From positions 12,428 to 76,427 of the forward strand of contig PLTX01000059.1 of the NCBI GenBank assembly GCA_003164675.1: 64,000 nt of DNA. Reading direction: 5' to 3'. Below the pieces are notes generated by a model that ran no database searches, was not told where the DNA came from, and saw only the letters and a program-made list of their open reading frames with translations. Positions 5,215 through 62,802 of the stretch are shown one piece after another (positions within the stretch are counted from its first letter, which is position 1; each line of letters begins with the position of its first letter). The DNA comes from Verrucomicrobiota bacterium. Lineage in GTDB: Bacteria > Verrucomicrobiota > Verrucomicrobiia > Palsa-1439. The translations under genes were made by a program, and so were the position numbers.

Positions 5215-5859
5215 TTACGTTGACGGAATTACTTCAGCACGCAGCACGTTGTTCGCATTCGGCTGGTCGTTGGTGCCACACGTGGCTGGCAGGGTATTCA
5301 TCCACGAGCAGTGCCCGTCATTAAACAAAATGTTTCCGCCCTGATCCCTGTGCGGCGCGATCGGTAACTGGCCGGAACCTGCCCACCGCGCCCCGACGGT
5401 GTACCCCGATTCCAACACGCCACTGCCCATACGATCCAAGGCAATGATTGAATCGGGTTGATCCTGCCAAAAAAGACCGGCGCAGTACGTGTAGCTAACC
5501 GCAAAAGCGCGGGTTGAGTCGTTTGTCAGGGGGTAATTCGCTTGCGCTTTCGCGGCGCTGTCACTGGGACACGCGAAAACCTTCGCCGACGTGACGACAT
5601 TGCTCAACAGGTTGAACGACGAGCAGAGTGGTTTGGTCACCGTCGTCAGCGGCATCCTGCCGCCGTAATTATCTGCGTACATGGCGATGCCCAAGCCGAT
5701 CTGCTTAAGGTTGCTCAGGCAGTTTGCCCGACGCGCCTTTTCACGAGCTTGATTCAACGCGGGCAGTAACATCGCTGCCAGAATCCCGATGATCGCGATG
5801 ACAACCAGCAACTCAATCAGCGTAAAGCCGCCAATTTTGTGTTTCAGTAAGCGTCTCAT
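5215..5859 (-). CDS. DUF1559 protein with a prepilin-type N-terminal cleavage/methylation domain
   Basis: N-terminus [26 protein letters not shown] plus the C-terminal DUF1559 signature (FNDGHCSWM). This family is massively expanded in Planctomycetes/Verrucomicrobia. Confidence 0.85.
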
Positions 5860-45489: not shown

Positions 45490-48177
45490 CTATTGCGTGG
45501 TAATGTCGCCGTCCTGCAGTTTCAGCGCCTTGACCTTCGCCGATTGACGATCAATCGGGTTCTCAACCACCGGCGGTTGCGCCTCGCTCGATTGGCTTGG
45601 CGCCATTGAGTCGATCCTGTCACTGCGGGGCGGCGGCGCAGCCCGATTCGGTTGGTTCGGTGCCATCGAGCCGATACGGTCACTATTTGGCGGCTGCGCC
45701 TCGCTCGATTGGCTCGGCGCCGTTGAGCCGATGATGCCACTGGGCGGCGGCGCCGCGTTATTCGTCCCCGAACTACCCTTGGGGAAGTACCGCTCTTCTA
45801 ACTCTTCGCTCACGCCCATCTGTTGCAAGCGGCGCTTGGCTTCGGCAACGGCCACCAGGTCGGAGCGTAAAACGACGGGGCGGATGAAGATGATCAACTC
45901 CGTGCGCGTCTTGCTGTTCGTCTGGCTCTTGAAGAGTTGGCCGACAAACGGAATGTCGCCCAAGAACGGCGTCTTGGTCGCCGACACCGTCTTCGTCCGC
46001 TGGATCGAACCGCCGAGAACAATGGTGCTCCTGTCTTGCACCGCCAGCGACGATTTCGCTTCCCGCTTGTTAATGATGGGAACGGTCGTGCCGCCAATAT
46101 TCACGTTGGCCCCGAGATCGTTCACTTTCTGCTCGATGTCCATCCGCACGTAGCCGTCGGGATTGATCCGCGGTGTCACGTGCAACTCGATGGCGACGTC
46201 TTCGTATTGGATACTGGCGGTCACGCCGGAGGTGGACAACGTGCCAGAACCGCTGACGAGCGTGGACGTCTGCGACGTCGGCACAGGCACGGACTGGCCC
46301 ACGATGATGTCCGCCTCCTGGTTGTCCATCGTTTGAATGACGGGCGTGGAGAGTATTTTGCTGTTGGACGTAGTGGCGAGCGCGTGAATGACCATGTCGA
46401 GGTTCAAATTCCTAAACGTGGTAAAGTAGGTAAGACCCGAGCCCGCAGACAGGGCCGCCGACGTCAAATTGGTGGCCGCCGAGTTGAGTTGAACGGGCGT
46501 ATTGCCGTCGGTGTTGTTGCCGCCCGTGCCGTAAATCGAGCGGTGCTGCTCCAAGCGTTCGAACAAGTCCACGCCCACGTCCAGCTCATTGTTGAGCGTC
46601 AGTTCGGCGATCACGACTTCGATCTGCACCTGAGCGACAGACGTGTCGAGGCTCTTGACCAGTTCCTGGATGCGCGCCATGTCCTCCTTGGTGGCCATCA
46701 CCAGCAAGCAATTCGTCCGCGGATCGGGCAGGATGTGGACGCCTTCCGCGTACTGCAGGAAGCCCGTGTTCGCGGCACCAGCGCCAGCACTACTGCTCAT
46801 CGTCGGGGCCGGCACGGACGGAGCGCGCGCGCCCGAGGTGGTCGTGCCGGTCGAGGACGTGGTCCGCCGTGTCGAAGAGGAGGAGGAGGAGGAAACCGAT
46901 CCGCCCGTGATCAATGCATTCAGCAACCCGGCCACATCCTCGGCGGTGGCGTAATTGAGCAGGATCACTCTCATCACGACATCGGGCTCGACCTTCGCGT
47001 CCAGCTCGGCAATCAGCCGGTCGAAGAACCCGAAATTGGTGATCCGGGTCAATATGAACAGTTTGTTCGTTCGATCATCAGCCGCCATGATGACCTTTCC
47101 CTCGACAACCGATTCTTCGCCGGTTGCCTGTGTCTGACCCTGACCCTGCGACGCAGGCCGCCGGATGGGAGACGGCACTTGTCCTGATTGACTGGGCGCG
47201 GCGGCGTGGGTGCCCGCTTGCTCGGCGTCCTGGATGATGCTCTGGAGCCGCGCCATGACTTCGGCGGCTTTGGCGTGCTTGAGGACGTACGACCGCATTT
47301 CCATCCGTAGCGCCGAGGGTTGATCGACATAGGTGACAATCTCCATCATTTGCTTCAAGTTCGCCGCAGTCTCCGAAATCAGGATGCTGTTCGAATCTTG
47401 CAGCGCCATCAACTGGCCATACGGATGGAGGTACGGTTGCAGCACAGGAACGACATCCGAAGCCTTGGCGTTCTTCAGGGGGATAATCTGCGTGCCCAAG
47501 GTGTCGGCCGGCGCGATCACGCGCCCGACCGGGAGACCTTCCTGCTTGGCCGTGTTGATCTGTACGATTTTCAAGAACTTCTCACCAAGCGGTATCGCCG
47601 CGATGTTGTTGATCGCCAGCACGCTATCGAGGGCCTGAATCGCCTCGTCCTTGGTCAGTTTGGACTGGCTGCGAAAATTGATCTGCGCGTTGATGTTTGG
47701 CGCGGAGATGATCGAGCGGCCCGTGAGCCGCGAATACCAGTCGAGGATCGCGGTAATCGGCGCTCCTTGAAATTCGAAGTCGATGACGGCTTGATCCGAC
47801 TGGGCCGGGCGGGCCGATGCCGGAGCGGGTGACGGCGGTGGTGGTGGCCGAATTGGCGGCGCGGGTTGTGCCGGCGTTTTGGCAGCGGCGGCGACACTGG
47901 AGCCTTGCGGTGGTCGCGCTGGCGGTGGAGCCGGAGCAGCCACTACGGGCGGCGGCGTATGCGGGATGTCCAGGAGTTGCTTCGGCAGGCCATTGGTATT
48001 GGTGGCTGTGGTCGCCTTGTTGGTTTTGTCGGTATCCGCTTCCCGGTTGGGATCGGTTTGGGAAACCGTGTTGGTTCTGTCCTCGGCGTACGCGACGCTA
48101 CGCGGTCGAATACCCGTCAGGATGGCCAGCCATGTCGATACGGCCACAGTCAATAAACTCAATCTCAGCTTTCTCAC
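45490..48177 (-). CDS. gspD: Type II secretion / type IV pilus secretin (GspD/PilQ family), with low-complexity inserts and a C-terminal 20-aa tandem repeat
   Basis: Signal peptide, N0/N1-like domains and a C-terminal secretin domain (NSKILSTPVIQTMDNQEADIIVGQSVPV). Pro-rich N-terminal linker. Ser/Thr-rich insert. 3 x 60-bp repeats at the 3' end. Confidence 0.9.
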   Translation of the reverse strand: MRKLRLSLLTVAVSTWLAILTGIRPRSVAYAEDRTNTVSQTDPNREADTDKTNKATTATNTNGLPKQLLDIPHTPPPVVAAPAPPPARPPQGSSVAAAAKTPAQPAPPIRPPPPPSPAPASARPAQSDQAVIDFEFQGAPITAILDWYSRLTGRSIISAPNINAQINFRSQSKLTKDEAIQALDSVLAINNIAAIPLGEKFLKIVQINTAKQEGLPVGRVIAPADTLGTQIIPLKNAKASDVVPVLQPYLHPYGQLMALQDSNSILISETAANLKQMMEIVTYVDQPSALRMEMRSYVLKHAKAAEVMARLQSIIQDAEQAGTHAAAPSQSGQVPSPIRRPASQGQGQTQATGEESVVEGKVIMAADDRTNKLFILTRITNFGFFDRLIAELDAKVEPDVVMRVILLNYATAEDVAGLLNALITGGSVSSSSSSSTRRTTSSTGTTTSGARAPSVPAPTMSSSAGAGAANTGFLQYAEGVHILPDPRTNCLLVMATKEDMARIQELVKSLDTSVAQVQIEVVIAELTLNNELDVGVDLFERLEQHRSIYGTGGNNTDGNTPVQLNSAATNLTSAALSAGSGLTYFTTFRNLNLDMVIHALATTSNSKILSTPVIQTMDNQEADIIVGQSVPVPTSQTSTLVSGSGTLSTSGVTASIQYEDVAIELHVTPRINPDGYVRMDIEQKVNDLGANVNIGGTTVPIINKREAKSSLAVQDRSTIVLGGSIQRTKTVSATKTPFLGDIPFVGQLFKSQTNSKTRTELIIFIRPVVLRSDLVAVAEAKRRLQQMGVSEELEERYFPKGSSGTNNAAPPPSGIIGSTAPSQSSEAQPPNSDRIGSMAPNQPNRAAPPPRSDRIDSMAPSQSSEAQPPVVENPIDRQSAKVKALKLQDGDITTQ
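45598..45776. repeat. 3 x ~60-bp tandem repeat inside the 3' end of gspD (encodes 20-aa units APSQSSEAQPP.../APNQPNRAAPPPRSDRIDSM)
   Basis: Direct comparison of consecutive 60-nt blocks (GGCGCCATTGAGTCGATCCTGTCACTG...). Confidence 0.75.
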
Positions 48178-56871: not shown

Positions 56872-57126
56872 GTTTTCACCGCTACGATATGGGACACCAC
56901 AATCCTTGTCAATGTCACAAGGAATCTGCGACTTTTAGAAAAAAGATGGTCGGGTTGCCCCGTCCCGCGTCATCGACTGAAAACCTGCTAGGGTAAGAGT
57001 GCAGCCGTGAGTCAGTTCACCGAGTCGTGAACGCGGCTCGTCGCGAGTGCTCCTCGCCACGAGCGGCTTCGGTGTTGCTGTTTGGTTGCCGTTCCGTCAC
57101 TCGCGGCTGCGCTCCTCCAATCATGT

Positions 57127-59412
57127 TCATGGCAGCAGCACGCGGACCCGGTAGTACCGTGGCGGGGTGTTGGTCGCGCCGCCGCTGTCGAGCATGTTGG
57201 TCACGATGCCGGTTCCGGTCCCGCCGCCGAGGATGTTGGTGGCGCCAGCGGAGGGCACGGGCAGGAAGGTCCCGTTGTAACTGCCGTCGGCGGCACCGGT
57301 GGAGTATTCCAGTATGTTGGTCCGCAATGCGATGCCCGGCATCCAATTGGTGTCGCCATTGGCCCCCAGATAAATCACGTTAATGTCCGTGGTGTTCGTC
57401 GTGGCGATGCTGATGATGTGCAGGTACGCCGCCGGGTTGGTGGGATTGAAGCCCACCAGGAATTTGTTGGTGTTGCTCATGCCGGTGCCGTCGGCATCGG
57501 CTTCCGGCGCGCCATTGGGGCTGGTGGTGTAGCCGAAGTAGAACTGCCGCCAGCATGCATACGCGTCGATAGGGATGGTGTAATCCGCCACCACGGGCAG
57601 GTGATCGGTGGTGTTCGTAAGGTCCAAATACAGTGTCGTGGCGGGGAGGTTGAACCGATTGGTCAGAATCGGGTCAAGATCGTTCAGTGCGGTATTGCCA
57701 TTGGCAGTCACGGAGCTACCATACGGCAGCGAGGCATTGTTGCCGAACGTGTGGAAGGTTCCCGGAACGTACTGCAAGCCCCCCGCCACGTCGTAATACA
57801 CATTGCTCGTCATCACCTGAAGATCGTCCCGGTACAGAAGATTACCGGCCGACTCGCTTAGCATGAACAAGATCGCGGGATTGGTCGTAGGGTCGCTCCA
57901 GTCGATGTTGGTCGCCGCGGATGTGTATGGCCCCCAATCAATGTTGAGAGGATCGACTCCCTGGCCCTGCCTTACGCCGTCAGGGGCACTGTTGGAGCAG
58001 ATGGTCTGGTACGCTGGTTCACTGCTGTTGTCGTCGGGGTTGTAATCGCCGACGTAGAGCACCCGGGCATTGGCGGGACAGTTGGTCGATTCGTCATTGC
58101 GGATGATCGTGGCTTCGACGAGTCGAGAGGCTGCGGGGCCGGCACCCGGACTCGCCGAGTAGTGGCTCACGTAGATGTAAAACTCATTATTCGTCGTCGG
58201 CGTGACACCGGCTGGCGCGAACTCGTATCGCATTACCTCTCGAGGCGTGCCGCCCGGGTCCACCGGGACGGAGGCCAGGAGTTGCACGGTGTTGGTGTTG
58301 TACACGAGGGCATTGGGCCCGCCTCCCGTGGCGGGGCGGGTGGACAAAGCTTGGTAGGGGCTCATCGCATAACCGGCCGGAATGCCATAGTATGCGTAGA
58401 AGGCATTCAACCCGTCGACGATCGGCTGGACCGTGTTGGTGTTGCTGGTCGTCTCCTGCAACGCGAGAATGTCGATTGGCTGAGCCGGGTCGCCATTCAC
58501 AATCTCTTCACCAATTCCTTCGAGCACGCCGCCGCTGGTCAGATTTGAGCTGGTGTAGGGGATTGTGCTGTCGTAAGGAGCAATCAACCCGGGTTGCGGA
58601 AGGGCGTACTGAGCACCGGCCTGGCTCTGATCGGCATTAATGTTGTACGTAACAATGCGGATCGTTCGGGTACCGACCAATCCGGGAGCCGAAGGGACGG
58701 GAACCGCGGTAAACGCGAGCGGGACTATCTCGACGGGCAAACCTGGATACACCTCCACATACCCGGTGACGTTGACCGGTCCGGTCGGAATGGCGGTGCC
58801 AATCATCGCTCCATCAACTGAATCAACCGTCACCCAGAAATACATTATCATGATGTTGCCGCCGCCGTCTTTGACGTAGTAAGTCGTGTTGCTATTCGGG
58901 AAGTTACCCGATGCAGGAATGGTGGTGGCTGAATCCGTGTAAATCGTGACGTTCTGCACCTGCAGCACGTAGCCCGCCTGGTTTTGAGGAATCGTGGTCG
59001 ACGCGGTCAATTGCGGAATCGTGAAGACGGGAGGTGTGGGCACCGAATTCCCCGTGGAAACCTGAGTGAGGCTGCTCATCGAGCCAATCTCCGGAATCTG
59101 GTGATATGGAGAATACGTACCGGCTGCGTTTACAGCATCCCCCACGGCTGGGGTGTAGCTACCGGGTAGGGGGCCGTGGAGGTCAATTGCCCCTGACGAA
59201 TCCTGAACAAGAATCTCCCAATTGTTGTAGGTATACCCATTAACCGTAAAGCCGCCACCCTGAGACGCGATGGCGGTGACAACGGGACTGGAGTCGAGGC
59301 TGACGGCAGTGCCGGTGGAATACCCTTCGATGGTGGCAATATGGTCGGCCCCGGCGTTCGCTCCGAACAAAACCACGGCTGATGCAATAACACCAACTCC
59401 AAACTTGTTCAT
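57127..59412 (-). CDS. Large secreted endonuclease/exonuclease/phosphatase (EEP) family protein. First gene of the secretion operon and a candidate cargo
   Basis: Signal peptide. EEP catalytic motifs (IVTYNINADQ, DILALQET, ...DHLPVVADY). N-terminal beta-rich domain. About 150-aa C-terminal domain of unknown function. Confidence 0.75.
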   Translation of the reverse strand: MNKFGVGVIASAVVLFGANAGADHIATIEGYSTGTAVSLDSSPVVTAIASQGGGFTVNGYTYNNWEILVQDSSGAIDLHGPLPGSYTPAVGDAVNAAGTYSPYHQIPEIGSMSSLTQVSTGNSVPTPPVFTIPQLTASTTIPQNQAGYVLQVQNVTIYTDSATTIPASGNFPNSNTTYYVKDGGGNIMIMYFWVTVDSVDGAMIGTAIPTGPVNVTGYVEVYPGLPVEIVPLAFTAVPVPSAPGLVGTRTIRIVTYNINADQSQAGAQYALPQPGLIAPYDSTIPYTSSNLTSGGVLEGIGEEIVNGDPAQPIDILALQETTSNTNTVQPIVDGLNAFYAYYGIPAGYAMSPYQALSTRPATGGGPNALVYNTNTVQLLASVPVDPGGTPREVMRYEFAPAGVTPTTNNEFYIYVSHYSASPGAGPAASRLVEATIIRNDESTNCPANARVLYVGDYNPDDNSSEPAYQTICSNSAPDGVRQGQGVDPLNIDWGPYTSAATNIDWSDPTTNPAILFMLSESAGNLLYRDDLQVMTSNVYYDVAGGLQYVPGTFHTFGNNASLPYGSSVTANGNTALNDLDPILTNRFNLPATTLYLDLTNTTDHLPVVADYTIPIDAYACWRQFYFGYTTSPNGAPEADADGTGMSNTNKFLVGFNPTNPAAYLHIISIATTNTTDINVIYLGANGDTNWMPGIALRTNILEYSTGAADGSYNGTFLPVPSAGATNILGGGTGTGIVTNMLDSGGATNTPPRYYRVRVLLP

Positions 59413-59865
59413 TTCCTACTCGCCCAATTTAACGTTGCTCTTCGTAAACTCGCTTGTAAGGCGTCTCAAACATGTGTTTGTGTGGAAACGCGTGTGTGAA
59501 TTTTGGGGAACGCGACATTCGATAGCGCCCGCCCTCGCCACGCGAACATTCAGTTACCTACAATGGGAAACTCACCATGTTCTCCAAATCGAGTTCAAGT
59601 TTTCATTTCCCCGGGTCCGCTTCTTGGCAGGCCCAGCCAACTCGCAGCTTCGCCACTAGTGGAGTTTATCACCAAGTCAATCCTCCCGGCAAGCACATTC
59701 GGGGCTTCCAAGGTAGGCTCAAGAAGGAAGGGCTTCGCGAACCGTGTTCGGGACGGTACGGTCTCACAAGAGAAGCGGCAGTAACACCGACCTCAACATC
59801 CGTACTCCGTCAGCTGGACACCCTCCATCCATCGTGCGGGCCATTCGGCTGGCGTGGCGCGACTG

Positions 59866-59885
59866 CCCCGACCTCGGAGTCGGGG
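59866..59885. repeat. GC-rich hairpin, copy 1 (CCCCGAC-CTCGGA-GTCGGGG)
   Basis: 7-bp perfect stem, 6-nt loop. Related copies at 60040 and 60368. Confidence 0.7.
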
Positions 59886-59981
59886 TATTCTCCGTTGAAA
59901 AATGACTGGACAGTAGGTATATGATTGTGTATATTCGGCGCGGTTTGGTTGTTCTTTGATATAGGGGAGCAGAAACGGATT

Positions 59982-60016
59982 AACGCTCAACGTTAAACGT
60001 TCAACACTCAACGCTC
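59982..60016. repeat. Five tandem heptamers AACGYTM (AACGCTC AACGTTA AACGTTC AACACTC AACGCTC)
   Basis: Read directly from the sequence. Lies at the edge of a low-GC island. Confidence 0.8.
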
Positions 60017-60039
60017 AAGGAAGGCGGGCGAAACGACGG

Positions 60040-60059
60040 CCCCAACCTCGAAGTCGGGG
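60040..60059. repeat. GC-rich hairpin, copy 2 (CCCCAAC-CTCGAA-GTCGGGG)
   Basis: 6/7 stem pairs. About 22/25 nt identical to copy 1 including the flanks. Confidence 0.65.
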
Positions 60060-60367
60060 TAAACTCGCCGGACGGCCGGTTCCGCGCCCAGCGGACGCGG
60101 CTACAGCCGAACCACGGCCTACGACACCGGGAACGGCGGCATACACCCGTCGGACGGGGCATGCCGTCCTACAATGTTGTGCGAGGGGGATCCCCCCATA
60201 ATATGTAAAATTACCAAACGAAGCCAATTTTTTCGGGTGTTGGAGGTTGTGGAGTAGCTTGAGGGATAAGCAGTTAGGAATCCAAGTGGGACAATTTGTC
60301 ACTTGGCTTCGTTTTGTCAAAAATGGCTTCGTTTGGGGGTCCGGAGCAAGGGTTGGGTCGAATTTGA

Positions 60368-60390
60368 GCCCCGACATCGGGTGTCGGGGC
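60368..60390. terminator. GC-rich hairpin, copy 3 (GCCCCGACA-TCGGG-TGTCGGGGC). Possible terminator of uvrD on the minus strand
   Basis: 9-bp stem about 65 nt downstream of the uvrD stop. On the minus strand it is followed by TCAAATT (weak U tract). Confidence 0.4.
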
Positions 60391-60454
60391 TACAGGTCGC
60401 GGCCCCACCGAGGGCGGTCTCAACATCCGTGCCCCGTCAGCCATGTCCACCTGT

Positions 60455-62470
60455 TTACCAATGTCCGGCCTGATGGCGGATGGAGAATTCCTGGTAGTGG
60501 GTCTTGGGGAGTTCGGCGAGGAAACGAGAGGGACGCTGGAATCCGCCCGAGTCGCCGGCGGTCATGCGAAAAACCGGGTACGTGAGATACAGTTCGTCCT
60601 TCGCCCGGGTCACGGCGACGTAAAACAACCGGCGTTCTTCCTCCTCGCCTTCCAAATTGTCGAGAGAACGCGCGAGCGGGAACATGCCGTCGCACAAACC
60701 GATCACGAACACGGCGCGCCATTCCTGCCCTTTCGCCTGGTGCACGGTGCTGAGCCGGACAAATTCCTGCTCGTTGGACGCCAGCAAGGACGCGTCCTCG
60801 GCTTCGAGGTTGGTGAGCAGCGCCAGTTGGCTGAGGAAATCGTCGATGGTATCGAACTGCATCGCGAACGAGGCCAGTTGATGCAAATCCTCCTCGCGGG
60901 TCCGCGCGTTGGGAAACTTCACCTTCAGGTAGCTGGCATAGAAACCGTCGATAATCTGCTCGATCATCTCCGCCGCGCGTTTCGGTTGCATCTGGCGCAA
61001 TTGATTCAACACCTGCGCGGCCTTCTTCCAGTCATCGACCGCCTTTTTCGGGATCGCCTCGCTGGTCAAGAGCAACGGTTTGCCAGCGGACAACACGGGA
61101 TGAAACTTTCCCCAGAGTTTGTCGGCGGTCTTGGCGCCGATGCCGGCGAGCAACTTGAGGATGCGCTTGAAGGCCATCTCGTCTTGTGGATTGACAGCAA
61201 CTTTCAGGAAACAACTGACGTCCTTCACATGCGCCTGCTCGAAAAATCGCAGGCCACTGGTGATGACGTACGGGATGTTCCGCCGCGTCAGTTCCATCTG
61301 CAATTCCATGGCGTGGTAATGCGCGCGATACAGCACGGCCACGTCGTTGAGCGGCACGCCTTCATCGCGCAATTCGAGAATGCGTTGCGCGACGAATTGC
61401 GACTGCTGGTTGCTGTCGGGGCACGGGATGAGCCACGGTTTTGCGCCGCCGGAGCGAACCGCCGTAAGGTTCTTCGCGAACTGGTGAATGTTGCCCTTGA
61501 TGGCGTCGTTGGCGAGCGCGAGGATGCTGGGCACGCTGCGGTAGTTGACCTCGATCTTGAACGTGCGCGCGCTCGGGTAGCGCTGCGGGAATCCGAGGAT
61601 GTTGCGGTAGTTCGCCCCGCGCCATGAATAAATTGATTGCGCATCATCGCCGACAACCATCAGATTGCGGTGCACCGTCGCGATGGCATCGATCAAATCT
61701 GCCTGGATCTTGTTCGTGTCCTGATACTCGTCGACCAACACATGCAGAAACTGCTCGCGATAGCGCGCGGCGACCTCGTCGTGCTCCTGAAACAACCGCA
61801 GCGTGTTGACGAGCAGGTCATCGTAGTCCATCGCGTTGGCCTTGAGTTTGCGTTCGCGGTACACCTCGCGCAACGTCTTGATCGGTCCCGCCAGATGCGA
61901 GAAATAATCGTATTGCTCGGCCAACACCTGTTCGACGGTGCGCTCCGTATTCACCGCCAGCGAGTAAATCTCCGCCAACACGTCGCCTTTCGGAAAACGC
62001 TCCTGCTTGGTGTCGATACCCGCCTCGGCCACGCACGCATCGAGCATGTCCTTTGCATCTTCACGGTCGAGAATGGTGAAATCCTGGCCGTAACCGAGGA
62101 GCTTGGCATGTCGGCGTAGGATTCGATTGCCGATGTGATGGAACGTGCCTCCCCAAATGGCGGAGATATCCGTCGGCAACAGGTTCTCCACGCGTCGCAG
62201 CATTTCCTTGGCAGCCTTGTTGGTAAACGTAAGGAGCAGAATCCGACCCGGCGGCACGTCATGTTCAACCAACCACGCCACGCGATACGTGAGCGTGCGC
62301 GTCTTGCCGCTGCCCGCGCCCGCAATGACCAGCATCGGCCCCGAGTTCACCGTGCCGTCGGCACCCGTGGCCGTCACGGCGGCGAACTGCTGGTCATTGA
62401 GTTCCACCCGGTAATCGATGTGGAGGTCCCGCGGCCCATGCGCGGGCTTCAAAATGTACTCAGGAGCCAT
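60455..62470 (-). CDS. uvrD: UvrD/PcrA/Rep-family ATP-dependent DNA helicase
   Basis: Helicase motifs I (AGAGSGKTRTL), II (VLVDEYQDTN), III (VVGDDAQSIYSWRGA), V and VI (VAVTRAKDELYLT). Start refined to ATG 62470. Confidence 0.9.
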   Translation of the reverse strand: MAPEYILKPAHGPRDLHIDYRVELNDQQFAAVTATGADGTVNSGPMLVIAGAGSGKTRTLTYRVAWLVEHDVPPGRILLLTFTNKAAKEMLRRVENLLPTDISAIWGGTFHHIGNRILRRHAKLLGYGQDFTILDREDAKDMLDACVAEAGIDTKQERFPKGDVLAEIYSLAVNTERTVEQVLAEQYDYFSHLAGPIKTLREVYRERKLKANAMDYDDLLVNTLRLFQEHDEVAARYREQFLHVLVDEYQDTNKIQADLIDAIATVHRNLMVVGDDAQSIYSWRGANYRNILGFPQRYPSARTFKIEVNYRSVPSILALANDAIKGNIHQFAKNLTAVRSGGAKPWLIPCPDSNQQSQFVAQRILELRDEGVPLNDVAVLYRAHYHAMELQMELTRRNIPYVITSGLRFFEQAHVKDVSCFLKVAVNPQDEMAFKRILKLLAGIGAKTADKLWGKFHPVLSAGKPLLLTSEAIPKKAVDDWKKAAQVLNQLRQMQPKRAAEMIEQIIDGFYASYLKVKFPNARTREEDLHQLASFAMQFDTIDDFLSQLALLTNLEAEDASLLASNEQEFVRLSTVHQAKGQEWRAVFVIGLCDGMFPLARSLDNLEGEEEERRLFYVAVTRAKDELYLTYPVFRMTAGDSGGFQRPSRFLAELPKTHYQEFSIRHQAGHW

Positions 62471-62490
62471 CGAGACAGTATTGCCTGTTA

Positions 62491-62802
62491 CTACTTCAGC
62501 GCCAGCGCGAACATCACAGCCGCCACCAGGCTGAGCACCGCCAGCATTCCCGCCGGCATAAACCGCCGCTTCTTGGCGTAGCGAATGGCGAACAATACCA
62601 ACAACAGTAGTGCAATGACCTCTGCCGCCACGAGACAGGCCTGCGAGCCTTGCCACACGCCGAACCCGCTGGCCAGCAGCACTAACCCGAAACCAACGCC
62701 CGAGATCAGCGAGGCTTTGCTGCCCACCCTGACGAATCCCCCTATGCCGCCCAAAATCATGATTACGCCGTACACCCACACCTCAATTGCCGTATTTTCC
62801 AT
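62491..62802 (-). CDS. Small membrane protein (3-4 TM helices, about 103 aa)
   Basis: Hydrophobic ORF directly upstream of uvrD on the same strand. Start at MENTAIEVW. Confidence 0.5.
   Translation of the reverse strand: MENTAIEVWVYGVIMILGGIGGFVRVGSKASLISGVGFGLVLLASGFGVWQGSQACLVAAEVIALLLLVLFAIRYAKKRRFMPAGMLAVLSLVAAVMFALALK

What the first reader, a model, noticed from the sequence alone, without database searches (positions are those of the whole stretch)
59413..60454. One-kilobase non-coding region upstream of the secretion operon with repeated hairpins, a duplicated 23-nt motif and tandem heptamers
No convincing ORF. Base composition alternates between low-GC islands (59895-59960 and 60195-60350) and GC-rich, structure-prone blocks. 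There are three related hairpins (59866-59885, 60040-60059, 60368-60390); the first two share about 22/25 nt including flanks. The motif CTCAACATCCGTRCYCCGTCAGC occurs twice (59793-59815 and 60419-60442). Five tandem heptamers AACGYTM sit at 59982-60016. A long-range inverted repeat (60214-60233 vs 60319-60336) is also present, next to a GGGGGATCCCCC palindrome. The first low-GC island has promoter-like TTGAAA-N17-TATATG on the plus strand. The second has TTGGCT-N18-TATTAT on the minus strand, pointing toward the operon. Candidate interpretations are a long structured 5' leader or sRNA regulating the secretion operon, a cluster of REP-like elements, or an iteron-like protein-binding array.
Basis: seen in the sequence. 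Interest (0 to 1): 0.6.

Follow-up and report, generated by a model that had tools for sequence, protein, structure and literature searches.

The report
Repeat-filled spacer around a portable promoter
The 1-kb gene-free stretch is real, but about three quarters of it is lineage-specific inserted repeat DNA (hairpin repeats, short tandem repeats, A/T-rich cassettes). That DNA interrupts a compact ~230-nt promoter-bearing element which related soil Verrucomicrobia carry in front of unrelated genes, so this is mostly ordinary repeat biology with some unexplained details.

Summary
The interpretation needs revising. The spacer lies between a uvrD/pcrA-like helicase gene and a 761-aa secreted hydrolase (EEP) gene, not directly before the type II secretion genes. 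gspE has its own promoter-like site, conserved in six genomes.

In the syntenic locus of a related species (L017) the same spacer is only 226 nt. It consists almost wholly of one conserved element (window 59827→59593, minus strand). This element contains a terminator-like hairpin, a second hairpin and an extended -10 promoter-like site. Nine copies (seven full, two 3' halves) sit upstream of non-homologous genes. It has no Rfam match and no covariation support.

The remaining ~790 nt are two insertions relative to L017. It is a mosaic resembling a BIME (a cluster of REP hairpin repeats): GTAG-tagged REP hairpins, a second hairpin family, the heptamers, and two A/T-rich modules that recur in relatives' intergenic regions. 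The "long-range inverted repeat" belongs to an iteron-like array of GGSTTCGTTT, found 20 times against ~1 expected in 298 kb and clustered in at least five genomes. The other insertion is ~165-188 nt in the leader.

The REP-cluster and binding-array readings are partly supported. The leader/sRNA reading is not.

The parts
60455..62470 (-). uvrD/pcrA-like helicase gene (671 aa). Its stop codon TAA is at 60455-60457. The spacer begins just downstream of it.
   Evidence: Translation. The gene is called as 671 aa with UvrD Pfam domains in identical public contigs. Orthologs are 61-95% identical.
60419..60441 (-). A2: upstream copy of the 23-nt repeat (sense strand GCTGACGGGGCACGGATGTTGAG). It is the ancestral 5' end of the conserved element, left next to the uvrD stop.
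   Evidence: It is orthologous to the motif that follows the uvrD stop in L017 and L024.
59815..60418 (-). Insertion 1 (604 nt relative to L017): a composite, BIME-like mosaic bounded by the 23-nt direct repeat.
   Evidence: The window aligns to L017 at 60700→60421 and resumes at 59817→59627, with L017 coordinates overlapping at the repeat. Its modules recur in L020 in the same order.
60367..60393 (-). H3: GTAG-tagged REP hairpin (GTAG + CCCCGACA CCCGA TGTCGGGG). It is the first strong hairpin after uvrD and has no U tract.
   Evidence: A near-identical hairpin is in L018:10852-10872.
60198..60340 (-). A/T-rich module 'M_A'. It has three copies of CCAAACGAAGCCA / TGGCTTCGTTT (60214-60226, 60304-60316, 60324-60336). 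The last copy on the sense strand overlaps the -35 of a promoter-like site TTGGCT-18-TATTAT (60227→60198).
   Evidence: It is 83% identical to L020:5515-5673, with the same 20-nt spacing and an inverted copy 75 nt away. nhmmer matches 60399→60186. The motif is enriched 20 against ~1 expected.
60185..60196 (.). GGGGGATCCCCC palindrome immediately after the M_A -10-like hexamer.
   Evidence: The equivalent GGGGGGTAGCCCC is at the same place in L020.
60083..60172 (-). Cluster of three GTAG-tagged palindromes (GTAG at 60172, 60122 and 60104 on the minus strand). Each lies within 0-2 nt of a stem of 7-8 pairs.
   Evidence: The GTAG tag as the defining feature of one REP superfamily, present in Verrucomicrobia, is from PMC3733652.
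60034..60066 (.). H2: hairpin of the CCCCRACYTCGRRGTYGGGG family, with flanks.
   Evidence: The same hairpin with the same 'GTTTAC' flank is in L020:1166-1191.
59982..60016 (.). Five tandem heptamers AACGYTM.
   Evidence: A similar six-unit array GTTGAGN is in L015:5489-5530, also intergenic.
59818..59976 (-). A/T-rich 'island-1' module including hairpin H1 (59860-59892). On the plus strand (antisense to the genes) it carries promoter-like sites at 59895-59923 and 59907-59935.
   Evidence: nhmmer E=7e-11 to the module present twice in L020 (1270-1459 and 5800-5950). Promoter scan. The H1 hairpin is identical in L005 and L020.
59593..59827 (-). Conserved dispersed element, the ancestral content of the spacer. 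It comprises the A1 repeat (59792-59814), terminator-like hairpin hp1 (59770-59794), hairpin hp2 (59734-59769), a promoter-like site (-35 TTGCCG 59692→59687; 18-nt spacer GGAGGATTGACTTGGTGA, identical or differing at 1 position in 6 of 9 copies; TGn + -10 TAAACT 59668→59663), and ~45 nt of conserved leader.
   Evidence: Searches give 7 full and 2 half copies at 76-90% identity. The promoter table is and the hp1 terminator-like hit. Indels of 1 and 7 nt and stops in all frames are shown.
59439..59626 (-). Insertion 2 (about 188 nt relative to L017; about 165 nt, 59424-59592, relative to L022), inside the predicted 5' leader of the hydrolase gene. No other copy was found.
57127..59412 (-). 761-aa secreted endonuclease/exonuclease/phosphatase-family protein gene. 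It is the gene actually served by the spacer.
56884..56912 (-). Separate promoter-like site of gspE (TTGACA-17-TATCGT) within a palindrome.
   Evidence: The same block lies upstream of gspE in L017, L025, L026, L028 and L029.

Best explanation
The spacer is a mosaic, not one functional unit.

Ancestral core. The core is a ~230-nt dispersed non-coding element on the minus strand (59827→59593). I read it as a portable, insulated promoter cassette. It has a terminator-like hairpin followed by a U-rich run, which would stop read-through from uvrD. A second hairpin follows, then about 60 conserved bases, then an extended -10 sigma-70-type promoter (-35, 18 nt, TGn-TAnnnT) and the first ~45 nt of the transcript. 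The hydrolase gene is most likely transcribed from this promoter. The type II secretion genes start from their own promoter before gspE.

Insertions. In the window's lineage the spacer grew from ~226 nt to 1042 nt by two insertions.
- The larger (604 nt) entered at the boundary between the element's first 23 nt and hairpin hp1, so those 23 nt now flank it as a direct repeat. It is a BIME-like composite: GTAG-tagged REP palindromes, a second hairpin family, a heptamer array and two A/T-rich modules. Each module has homologs in other intergenic regions of related Verrucomicrobiia.
- The REP hairpins most likely act as transcription stops or RNA 3'-end stabilisers between uvrD and the hydrolase promoter.
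- One A/T-rich module carries an iteron-like array of GGSTTCGTTT that is probably a protein-binding site set overlapping a promoter.

Shown: conservation, insertion boundaries, repeat families, motif enrichment.

Inferred: promoter activity, terminator activity, protein binding, and the direction of the event (insertion here rather than deletion in the relative).
For: Ortholog comparison:
- The syntenic ortholog L017 has the order Tmemb_14, uvrD, hydrolase (73% aa identity), gspE. Its spacer is 226 nt and is made almost wholly of the element.
- The window aligns to L017 in three blocks: uvrD 3' end 87.5%, element 90.2%, gene start 90.8%.
- The 23-nt motif follows the uvrD stop in L017 and also in L024, whose downstream region is otherwise rearranged.

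Element copies:
- The nine copies lie upstream of and co-oriented with hydrolase paralogs (window, L017, L006, L020, L018, L022), a PAS sensor kinase (L011, L016) and an unrelated 803-aa ORF (L015).
- The -35/18-nt/-10 architecture is kept in all 9 copies. TA at -10 positions 1-2 is present in 9/9, T at position 6 in 7/9, and TG upstream in 7/9.
- hp1 is flagged as terminator-like.
- The element is not coding: it has 1-nt and 7-nt indels and stops in every frame.

Insert modules:
- M_A is 83% identical to L020:5515-5673.
- Island-1 matches two L020 copies.
- There are four GTAG-tagged palindromes.
- The hairpin family occurs 13 times in 274 kb of related loci, excluding one unrelated pattern match at 45766-45784 in the window. 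The window's three copies are all in this spacer.
- A comparable 1-kb REP cluster is in L018.
- GGSTTCGTTT occurs 20 times against ~1 expected, in clusters.

Other:
- gspE has its own conserved promoter-like site.
- GTAG REPs, their clustering and their presence in Verrucomicrobia are described in PMC3733652.
- Reuse of near-identical promoters before unrelated genes is described in PMC3575422.
Against: - There are no transcript data, so no promoter or terminator here is demonstrated.
- The window's own hexamers (TTGCCG / TAAACT) score 8 of 12, and the consensus scan did not report them.
- An 18-nt spacer that is almost invariant is unusual for a plain promoter. It suggests an additional bound factor or an RNA role.
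- H1-H3 lack U tracts, so they are not canonical intrinsic terminators.
- H1 and H2 lack a GTAG tag.
- A 23-nt flanking duplication is not what known REP or transposon insertion mechanisms produce.
- Polarity rests on one compact ortholog plus L024. Deletion between the two repeat copies in L017 would give the same picture.
- The copy number of every module in a complete genome is unknown.
Confidence: 0.6

Rival explanations
1. The conserved ~230-nt element is a cis-regulatory RNA (a structured 5' leader or riboswitch-like sensor), or a small RNA, transcribed on the minus strand and controlling the downstream gene. The rest of the spacer is passenger DNA.
For: - All nine copies are co-oriented with a downstream gene.
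- Identity of 76-90% is as high as in the flanking coding DNA.
- Both hairpins are kept in 91% of cells. Ten pairs vary on one side only while staying G-C/G-U/A-U, and several invariant G-U pairs would be C-A mismatches on the other strand.
- A GGAGGA run lies in the invariant block.
Against: - No pair has changes on both sides. The covariation score does not exceed shuffles (123 of 500 reach it), and the alifold covariation term is unfavourable (+1.84).
- hp2 is disrupted in L020.
- L018 and L022 keep only the 3' half, which contains the promoter-like site.
- There is no Rfam match.
- If the promoter reading is right, hp1 and hp2 lie upstream of the transcription start.
Confidence: 0.15
2. 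The 604-nt insert is a non-autonomous integrative or transposable element: a miniature element or the remnant of a larger island. It entered a specific site at the element's 5' end, with the 23-nt repeats as att-like or target-duplication ends and the GGSTTCGTTT copies as recombinase or transposase binding sites.
For: - A direct repeat bounds exactly the DNA that is missing in the ortholog.
- The same junction (between the 23-nt motif and hp1) is also where L024 is rearranged, and where L016 has a 7-nt deletion with an IS66 C-terminal relic just upstream.
- Repeated 13-mers in direct and inverted orientation lie within 80-220 nt of one end, resembling arm-type or subterminal sites.
- The composite keeps its module order at two or three unrelated loci.
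Against: - No integrase, transposase or RAYT was seen in the flanks examined.
- No terminal inverted repeats were found.
- The L020 copies are not flanked by direct repeats.
- In L008 and L014 the two A/T-rich modules are adjacent without REPs, and modules also occur singly. This suggests piecemeal accretion rather than a unit.
- The surrounding contexts are housekeeping (rpoD, phoH).
Confidence: 0.2
3. The GGSTTCGTTT array with its adjacent promoter-like site is the functional point of the insert. It would be a regulator-controlled upstream promoter (or a roadblock or insulator) that brings the hydrolase gene under a new transcription factor, with the heptamers as a second binding array.
For: - Enrichment of 20 against ~1 expected.
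- Conserved geometry: 20-21-nt phasing, and one copy overlapping the -35 in the window, L020, L008 and L014.
- Four copies lie in the 1-kb spacer directly upstream of gspE in L026.
- The flanks of the motif are species-specific, as expected if the sites co-evolve with a protein.
Against: - The downstream genes are unrelated or absent (crcB riboswitch in L020, nothing recognisable in L008 and L014).
- Three strong hairpins and a terminator-like hairpin lie between this promoter and the hydrolase gene.
- Whole modules of ~135 nt are conserved rather than only the sites, which points to copying rather than regulon evolution.
- There is only one other heptamer array of this kind, in L015.
Confidence: 0.25
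4. The long form is ancestral, and the compact L017 spacer arose by deletion between the two 23-nt repeat copies (plus a second deletion). On this reading nothing was inserted in the window's lineage.
For: - Recombination between 23-nt direct repeats would leave exactly one copy, as seen in L017.
- L020, whose hydrolase paralog is closer in sequence (87%) than L017's (73%), also has a long (883-nt) upstream region with the island-1 module abutting the element.
Against: - The other element copies (L006, L011, L015, L016) have no such modules upstream.
- L024 keeps the post-uvrD motif without any trace of the composite.
- L020 has no second copy of the 23-nt motif.
- The second insertion is absent from L017, L020 and L022 alike.
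Confidence: 0.2

Closest known systems
REP elements and their clusters (BIMEs), specifically the GTAG-tagged REP superfamily (Di Nocera et al. 2013, PMC3733652). The BIME/RIB architecture with an A/T-rich protein-binding motif between REPs is from my own knowledge of E. coli.
   Same: - Short imperfect palindromes of 19-30 nt with stems of 7-8 pairs.
- A GTAG tetranucleotide abutting one end.
- Extragenic location downstream of a gene.
- Several units clustered and interspersed with other short motifs.
- Recurrence in other intergenic regions and in related genomes.
- The phylum is already known to carry GTAG REPs.
   Different: - Genome-wide copy number is unknown, and the density seen here is low (about one hairpin per 20 kb of related sequence).
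- The cluster is combined with ~135-160-nt A/T-rich modules that carry promoter-like sites and a phased 10-13-nt array, and with heptamer arrays. These are not part of described BIMEs.
- No RAYT gene was looked for.
Putative mobile promoters / promoter reuse in prokaryotes (PMC3575422)
   Same: A highly similar intergenic sequence containing a promoter-like site is found directly upstream of non-homologous genes, within and between genomes.
   Different: - The element is ~230 nt long and includes a terminator-like hairpin and a second hairpin upstream of the promoter.
- Its -35/-10 spacer is nearly invariant.
- Mobility is inferred only from its distribution.
- No associated transposase or inverted repeats were found.
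Plasmid-type iterons / centromere-like repeat arrays next to a promoter (own knowledge: pSC101/P1/F origins; parC of R1; omega-protein heptads of pSM19035)
   Same: - Direct repeats phased at 20-21 nt.
- An adjacent A/T-rich stretch.
- An inverted copy overlapping a promoter.
- A separate array of contiguous heptamers.
   Different: - The repeat unit is only 10-13 nt long.
- The arrays lie in chromosomal housekeeping contexts, at several loci per genome.
- No rep, par or ribbon-helix-helix gene is adjacent.
- No DnaA box was recognised.
Correia/NEMIS-type miniature elements that carry promoters and fold into hairpins (own knowledge)
   Same: Small non-coding dispersed DNA inserted between genes, which can supply promoter-like sequences and RNA hairpins to neighbouring transcripts.
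   Different: - No terminal inverted repeats and no short target duplication.
- The composition is modular and variable.
- It is bounded by a 23-nt repeat.

Membership tests
REP / BIME (GTAG superfamily) | Short (20-40 bp) imperfect palindrome able to form a stem-loop | tested here: met
   Stems of 7-8 pairs at 60369-60389, 60136-60169, 60099-60119 and 60083-60101. H1-H3.
REP / BIME (GTAG superfamily) | GTAG (or degenerate) tetranucleotide at one end, not involved in pairing (PMC3733652) | tested here: met
   Four GTAG on the minus strand (60393, 60172, 60122, 60104), each 0-2 nt from a palindrome. Not met by H1 and H2.
REP / BIME (GTAG superfamily) | Extragenic location, predominantly downstream of coding regions; units often clustered | tested here: met
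   All lie in the spacer downstream of uvrD. Related hairpins lie 15-90 nt after gene ends in L018, L020 and L023. There is a 1-kb cluster in L018.
REP / BIME (GTAG superfamily) | Tens to thousands of copies per genome | not testable with these tools
   Only 64 kb of this genome is held. There is no copy outside the spacer in the window. In 274 kb of related loci there are 13 hairpins of the CCCCGA..TCGGGG type, excluding one unrelated pattern match.
REP / BIME (GTAG superfamily) | Association with a RAYT (IS200/IS605-type tyrosine transposase) somewhere in the genome | not tested
   The window's proteins were not screened for Y1 transposases, and the rest of the genome is not available.
Any curated RNA family (Rfam 15) | Covariance-model match | tested here: not met
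   No match at E<=1 on 58900-61000. Only noise at E<=10 on the compact ortholog. The positive control, the fluoride riboswitch in L020, was found.
Cis-regulatory structured RNA (riboswitch/leader) in general | Conserved secondary structure supported by compensatory changes | tested here: inconclusive
   There are 7 sequences (about 4 independent lineages): 91% of cells paired, 0 double-sided changes, and scores not above shuffles.
Sigma-70-type promoter (extended -10) | -35 and -10 hexamers at 16-18 nt, TG one base upstream of the -10 | tested here: met
   All 9 copies keep -35/18 nt/-10. TA at positions 1-2 is present in 9/9, T at position 6 in 7/9 and TGn in 7/9. This is sequence evidence only; activity was not tested.
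Intrinsic terminator | G+C-rich hairpin followed by a U tract | tested here: met
   Met by hp1 (59789→59776 plus CTTCTCTTGT). Not met by H1, H2 or H3, which lack a U tract.
MITE | Terminal inverted repeats and a short target-site duplication | tested here: not met
   There are no inverted repeats at the ends of the 604-nt insert or of the element. The flanking repeat is 23 nt.
Iteron-type replication origin | Tandem 17-22-bp iterons, an A/T-rich region and an adjacent rep gene | tested here: not met
   Phased repeats and an A/T-rich stretch are present. The unit is 10-13 nt, and no rep-like gene lies next to any copy.
Putative mobile promoter | Near-identical promoter-containing intergenic sequence upstream of non-homologous genes | tested here: met
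   The downstream genes are hydrolase paralogs, a PAS sensor kinase and an unrelated 803-aa ORF.

The most novel reading that the evidence does not exclude
Soil and peat Verrucomicrobiia may carry an undescribed system of modular intergenic elements with two parts.

(a) A ~230-nt 'insulated promoter' cassette (terminator-like hairpin, second hairpin, extended -10 promoter with an invariant 18-nt spacer). It moves or is copied to new genes, and its 5' boundary is a recombination hot spot.

(b) A composite element built from a phased GGSTTCGTTT array with a promoter at one end and an oppositely oriented promoter module at the other. The two promoters converge on a variable middle that accumulates REP hairpins and heptamer arrays.

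If the array binds a dedicated protein and the composite is mobilised through the 23-nt site, this would be a new kind of non-autonomous element that rewires the transcription of secreted-enzyme genes.
Probability: 0.15. Interest if true: 0.6.

Novelty: new member of a known kind. Interest (0 to 1): 0.3.

Why it matters
The result shows how a long, feature-rich intergenic region in an uncultured bacterium can be resolved by one comparison with a syntenic relative. Most of the striking features here are repeat DNA inserted recently. The functional core is a small promoter-bearing element.

The specific sequence families are not in Rfam and, as far as I could find, not described. These are the element, the two A/T-rich modules and the GGSTTCGTTT array. 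They recur across several species of a poorly studied soil lineage. They are therefore useful for annotation: one such repeat cluster is currently called as a protein gene. They are also candidates for studying how promoters and repeats spread.

The analysis also corrects the regulatory picture. The type II secretion genes have their own strongly conserved promoter-like site. The slot between uvrD and gspE is a variable site that holds different secreted hydrolase genes in different relatives.

Tried and rejected
1. Known RNA families: Rfam found nothing and ARAGORN found nothing.
2. RNA structure of the element: RNAalifold on 3 and on 6 copies, and pair counting on 7 copies, gave no covariation.
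3. Element as an IS66 transposase pseudogene:
   - This was prompted by a weak IS66_C hit (E=0.0024) next to the L016 copy.
   - It was rejected because the hit lies outside the element and only in L016.
   - Translations of the element have stops and frameshifts in every frame, and there are no Pfam hits.
4. Hidden small protein gene in the A/T-rich module: one frame is open in both the window and L020, but substitutions fall 12/12/11 on the codon positions and amino-acid identity is below nucleotide identity. It was rejected.
5. Other spacer ORFs have no Pfam hits.
6. Tandem Repeats Finder did not score the heptamers.
7. A GTDB species-representative scan with the hydrolase protein found only paralogous loci with no synteny.
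8. A metagenome scan with a two-block pattern from the element returned only 2 contigs. It did not even return the window's own public contigs, so that collection is incomplete for this purpose and gives no copy-number estimate.
It was uninformative (one search was a syntax error).
10. The search for rep, integrase or phage genes next to the arrays in L008 and L014 found only housekeeping genes (rpoD, phoH) and a DUF3800 protein.
11. No direct repeats were found flanking the L020 composites.
12. Strain variants of the window (L001-L003) are identical in the spacer, so there is no presence/absence polymorphism to use.
Full report
**Setting.** The window comes from an uncultured member of the Verrucomicrobiia. 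Identical sequence occurs in many peat and soil metagenome assemblies, and the nearest genomes are Verrucomicrobiia MAGs. The region 59413-60454 lies between two minus-strand genes. Upstream is a uvrD/pcrA-like helicase gene (60455-62470; stop TAA at 60455-60457). Downstream is a 761-aa endonuclease/exonuclease/phosphatase-family (EEP) protein gene with a signal-peptide-like N-terminus (57127-59412). After it come gspE, gspF, gspG and the rest of a type II secretion cluster.

**Observation check.**
- Composition alternates between 0.40-0.42 and 0.66-0.71 GC.
- The 23-nt motif occurs exactly twice in 64 kb, at 59792-59814 and 60419-60441. No shuffle gave a match.
- Three related hairpins are the only matches to their pattern in the window, with 0.03 expected. 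Two of them share 28 of 33 nt.
- The five heptamers are at 59982-60016.
- The inverted repeat, the GGGGGATCCCCC palindrome and both promoter-like sites are present.
- No ORF in the spacer has a Pfam hit.

**Key comparison.** A search with the hydrolase protein found a full-length 73%-identical homolog. Its contig, L017, is syntenic: Tmemb_14, uvrD, hydrolase, gspE, gspF and so on. There the uvrD-hydrolase spacer is 226 nt. The window aligns to it in three collinear blocks:
- uvrD 3' end through the 23-nt motif (window 60700→60421, 87.5%);
- a ~190-nt block (59817→59627, 90.2%);
- the last ~25 nt before the ATG plus the gene (59438→59201, 90.8%).

Relative to L017 the window therefore has two extra segments. 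One is 604 nt (59815-60418), flanked by the two copies of the 23-nt motif. The other is ~188 nt (59439-59626). All three hairpins, both low-GC islands, the heptamers, the palindrome and the three-copy repeat lie in the first segment.

**The conserved element.** The block shared with L017 is a dispersed element.
- Full copies (76-90% identity) are in L006, L011, L015, L016, L017 and L020. The 3' halves are in L018 and L022.
- Every copy is co-oriented with a downstream gene, but the genes differ. They are hydrolase paralogs, a PAS sensor kinase whose start is ~26 nt after the element (L011, L016), and an unrelated 803-aa ORF (L015).
- It is not coding. Copies differ by 1-nt and 7-nt indels, and every frame has stops in some copy.
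- Rfam has nothing like it.

Its anatomy on the sense (minus) strand runs as follows:
- the 23-nt motif;
- hairpin hp1 (59770-59794) followed by CUUCUCUUGU, flagged by the terminator scan;
- hairpin hp2 (59734-59769);
- about 60 conserved nt;
- a block that aligns in all nine copies as -35 (TTGCCG, TGGACA, TTGACG or TTGATC), an 18-nt spacer (GGAGGATTGACTTGGTGA, nearly invariant) and a -10 (TAAACT, TAAAAT, TATTTT, TAATAT, TATTAT, TACTCT or TAAATC), with TG one base upstream in seven of nine;
- about 45 nt of conserved sequence.

I read the 3' part as an extended -10 promoter plus the start of the leader. That part alone is kept in L018 and L022. I read hp1 as a terminator or insulator against read-through from the upstream gene; in L017 it starts ~35 nt after the uvrD stop.

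The RNA-structure alternative was tested. The hairpins are 91% paired and tolerate only wobble-compatible single changes. There is no double-sided change, the scores do not exceed shuffles, and hp2 is broken in L020. With only about four independent lineages this is inconclusive, leaning against.

**The 604-nt insert.** It is a mosaic of modules that recur elsewhere. Positions below follow the sense (minus) strand, starting from uvrD.
- *H3:* a palindrome directly preceded by GTAG (60393→60369).
- *A/T-rich module M_A (60340→60198):* it is 83% identical over 161 nt to L020:5515-5673, which lies between a hydrolase paralog's terminator and a fluoride riboswitch-crcB unit.
- *Repeat geometry in M_A:* both copies have two direct 13-mers 20 nt apart and an inverted one 75 nt further on. 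The inverted copy overlaps the -35 of a promoter-like site (window TTGGCT-18-TATTAT). A G-run palindrome follows.
- *G+C-rich block:* three more GTAG-tagged palindromes at 60172, 60122 and 60104.
- *H2:* it belongs to a second hairpin family together with H1. The identical H1 hairpin occurs in L005 and L020.
- *Heptamers:* a similar six-unit array lies in an L015 intergenic region, next to other 7-mer arrays and a related hairpin.
- *Island-1 module (59976→59818):* it is homologous (E=7e-11) to a module present twice in L020, once directly upstream of L020's element and once upstream of the riboswitch.
- *Island-1 promoter:* the good promoter-like site is on the antisense strand (L020 TTGACT-17-TATTAT; window TTGAAA-17-TATATG and TGGACA-17-TATATT). 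It therefore faces the M_A site across the REP-filled middle.

The same order (M_A-like, then a variable G+C-rich middle, then island-1) is seen in the window and in both L020 spacers. In L008 and L014 the two A/T-rich modules sit only ~60-100 nt apart.

GTAG-tagged REPs, their tendency to cluster, their position downstream of genes and their abundance in a verrucomicrobium (Opitutus terrae) are described in PMC3733652. L018 contains a 1-kb cluster of such palindromes that is currently called as a 342-aa gene.

**The 10-mer array.** GGSTTCGTTT occurs 20 times in 298 kb of window plus related loci, against ~1 expected. Almost all copies are in clusters:
- five to six copies with 21-nt phasing in L008;
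- two in L014;
- two plus three in L020;
- four (including a palindromic pair) in the 1-kb spacer upstream of gspE in L026;
- three in the window.

The bases flanking the 10-mer are species-specific. No rep, integrase or phage gene is adjacent, and the contexts include rpoD and phoH. This is the best candidate for a protein-binding array in the region. Its partner is unknown.

**Where the secretion genes are driven from.** Between the hydrolase stop and gspE there is a promoter-like site, TTGACA-17-TATCGT (56912→56884), embedded in a palindrome. The same ~45-nt block precedes gspE in L017, L025, L026, L028 and L029.

Across relatives, the segment between uvrD and gspE holds the following:
- the EEP hydrolase gene in the window and L017;
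- nothing in L025;
- a HAD hydrolase gene in L028;
- an unknown gene plus a phosphodiesterase gene in L029;
- RCC1-repeat genes on the other strand in L026;
- a rearrangement in L024.

The spacer studied here is therefore the upstream region of a variable cargo gene, not of the secretion operon.

**The 23-nt repeat.** The copy next to uvrD (A2) is orthologous to the motif after the uvrD stop in L017 and in L024. The other copy (A1) heads the intact element. The ~55 nt upstream of A1 are homologous to the sequence upstream of L020's element. The repeat thus marks the two boundaries of the extra DNA.

I favour insertion in the window's lineage. L024 keeps the motif with no trace of the composite, and other element copies lack these modules upstream. 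Deletion between the repeats in L017 would give the same picture and cannot be excluded. The mechanism is open. A 23-nt duplication does not fit known REP or transposon insertion. It could reflect att-type recombination, or recombination with a paralogous locus of the L020 type. The same junction is also broken in L024 and altered in L016, which hints at a fragile or targeted site.

**Verdict.** The region is best described as a compact, dispersed promoter-bearing element expanded by a BIME-like composite insert and a second small insert. The families involved appear undescribed but belong to known kinds of bacterial intergenic repeats. Interest is modest. The open points are the nearly invariant promoter spacer, the phased GGSTTCGTTT arrays, the convergent promoter-like pair and the 23-nt boundary repeat.

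Noticed in passing
window 56884-56912 (minus strand), within the 56872-57126 spacer: gspE has its own promoter-like site TTGACA-17-TATCGT inside a palindrome (CCTTGTGaCATTGACAAGG). The ~45-nt block is almost identical upstream of gspE in five other genomes (L017, L025, L026, L028, L029). It is probably the operator and promoter of the type II secretion operon.
   Followed up: partly
L017, L024, L025, L026, L028, L029 downstream of uvrD; window 57127-60454: The slot between uvrD and gspE is variable among relatives. It holds the EEP hydrolase gene, a HAD hydrolase gene, an unknown gene plus a phosphodiesterase gene, RCC1-repeat genes with a 1005-nt spacer, nothing (120-nt spacer), or a rearrangement. 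This pattern suggests exchangeable cargo, possibly secretion substrates.
   Followed up: partly
L008:10383-10578; L014:2881-2944; L020:901-965 and 5520-5638; L026:7534-7725: Clusters of the motif GGSTTCGTTT with 20-21-nt phasing, next to an A/T-rich promoter-like stretch, occur in intergenic DNA of several species. The flanking bases are species-specific.
   Followed up: partly
L018:10114-11142: A region called as a 342-aa gene without any Pfam hit is a 1-kb cluster of GTAG-tagged palindromes and duplicated hairpin units. It is probably a mis-annotated repeat cluster.
   Followed up: partly
L016:288-356 (minus strand): A relic of an IS66-family transposase C-terminus (Pfam IS66_C, E=0.0024, below the gathering score) lies immediately upstream of this copy of the conserved element. 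The L011/L016 similarity breaks at about that point.
   Followed up: partly
L020:5997-6068: A fluoride riboswitch (53.6 bits) lies upstream of crcB, directly after a copy of the island-1 module.
   Followed up: yes
L015:5300-5660; L014:2975-3045: These intergenic mosaics hold further short tandem arrays: TGTCTYC x5, CTCTGCGCY x3, and GGCTACTN x4-5 (the reverse complement of the last contains GTAG).
   Followed up: no
window 60455-62779: The longest ORF for the helicase starts at a GTG at 62779 and adds ~100 arginine/glycine-rich residues. Public gene calls and all orthologs use the start at 62470 (671 aa).
   Followed up: yes
window 59470-59495 and 59535-59564 (plus strand), inside insertion 2: A terminator-like hairpin and a promoter-like site (TCGCCA-18-TACAAT) lie on the strand antisense to the hydrolase gene. 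No homolog of this 165-188-nt insertion was found in any locus.
   Followed up: no
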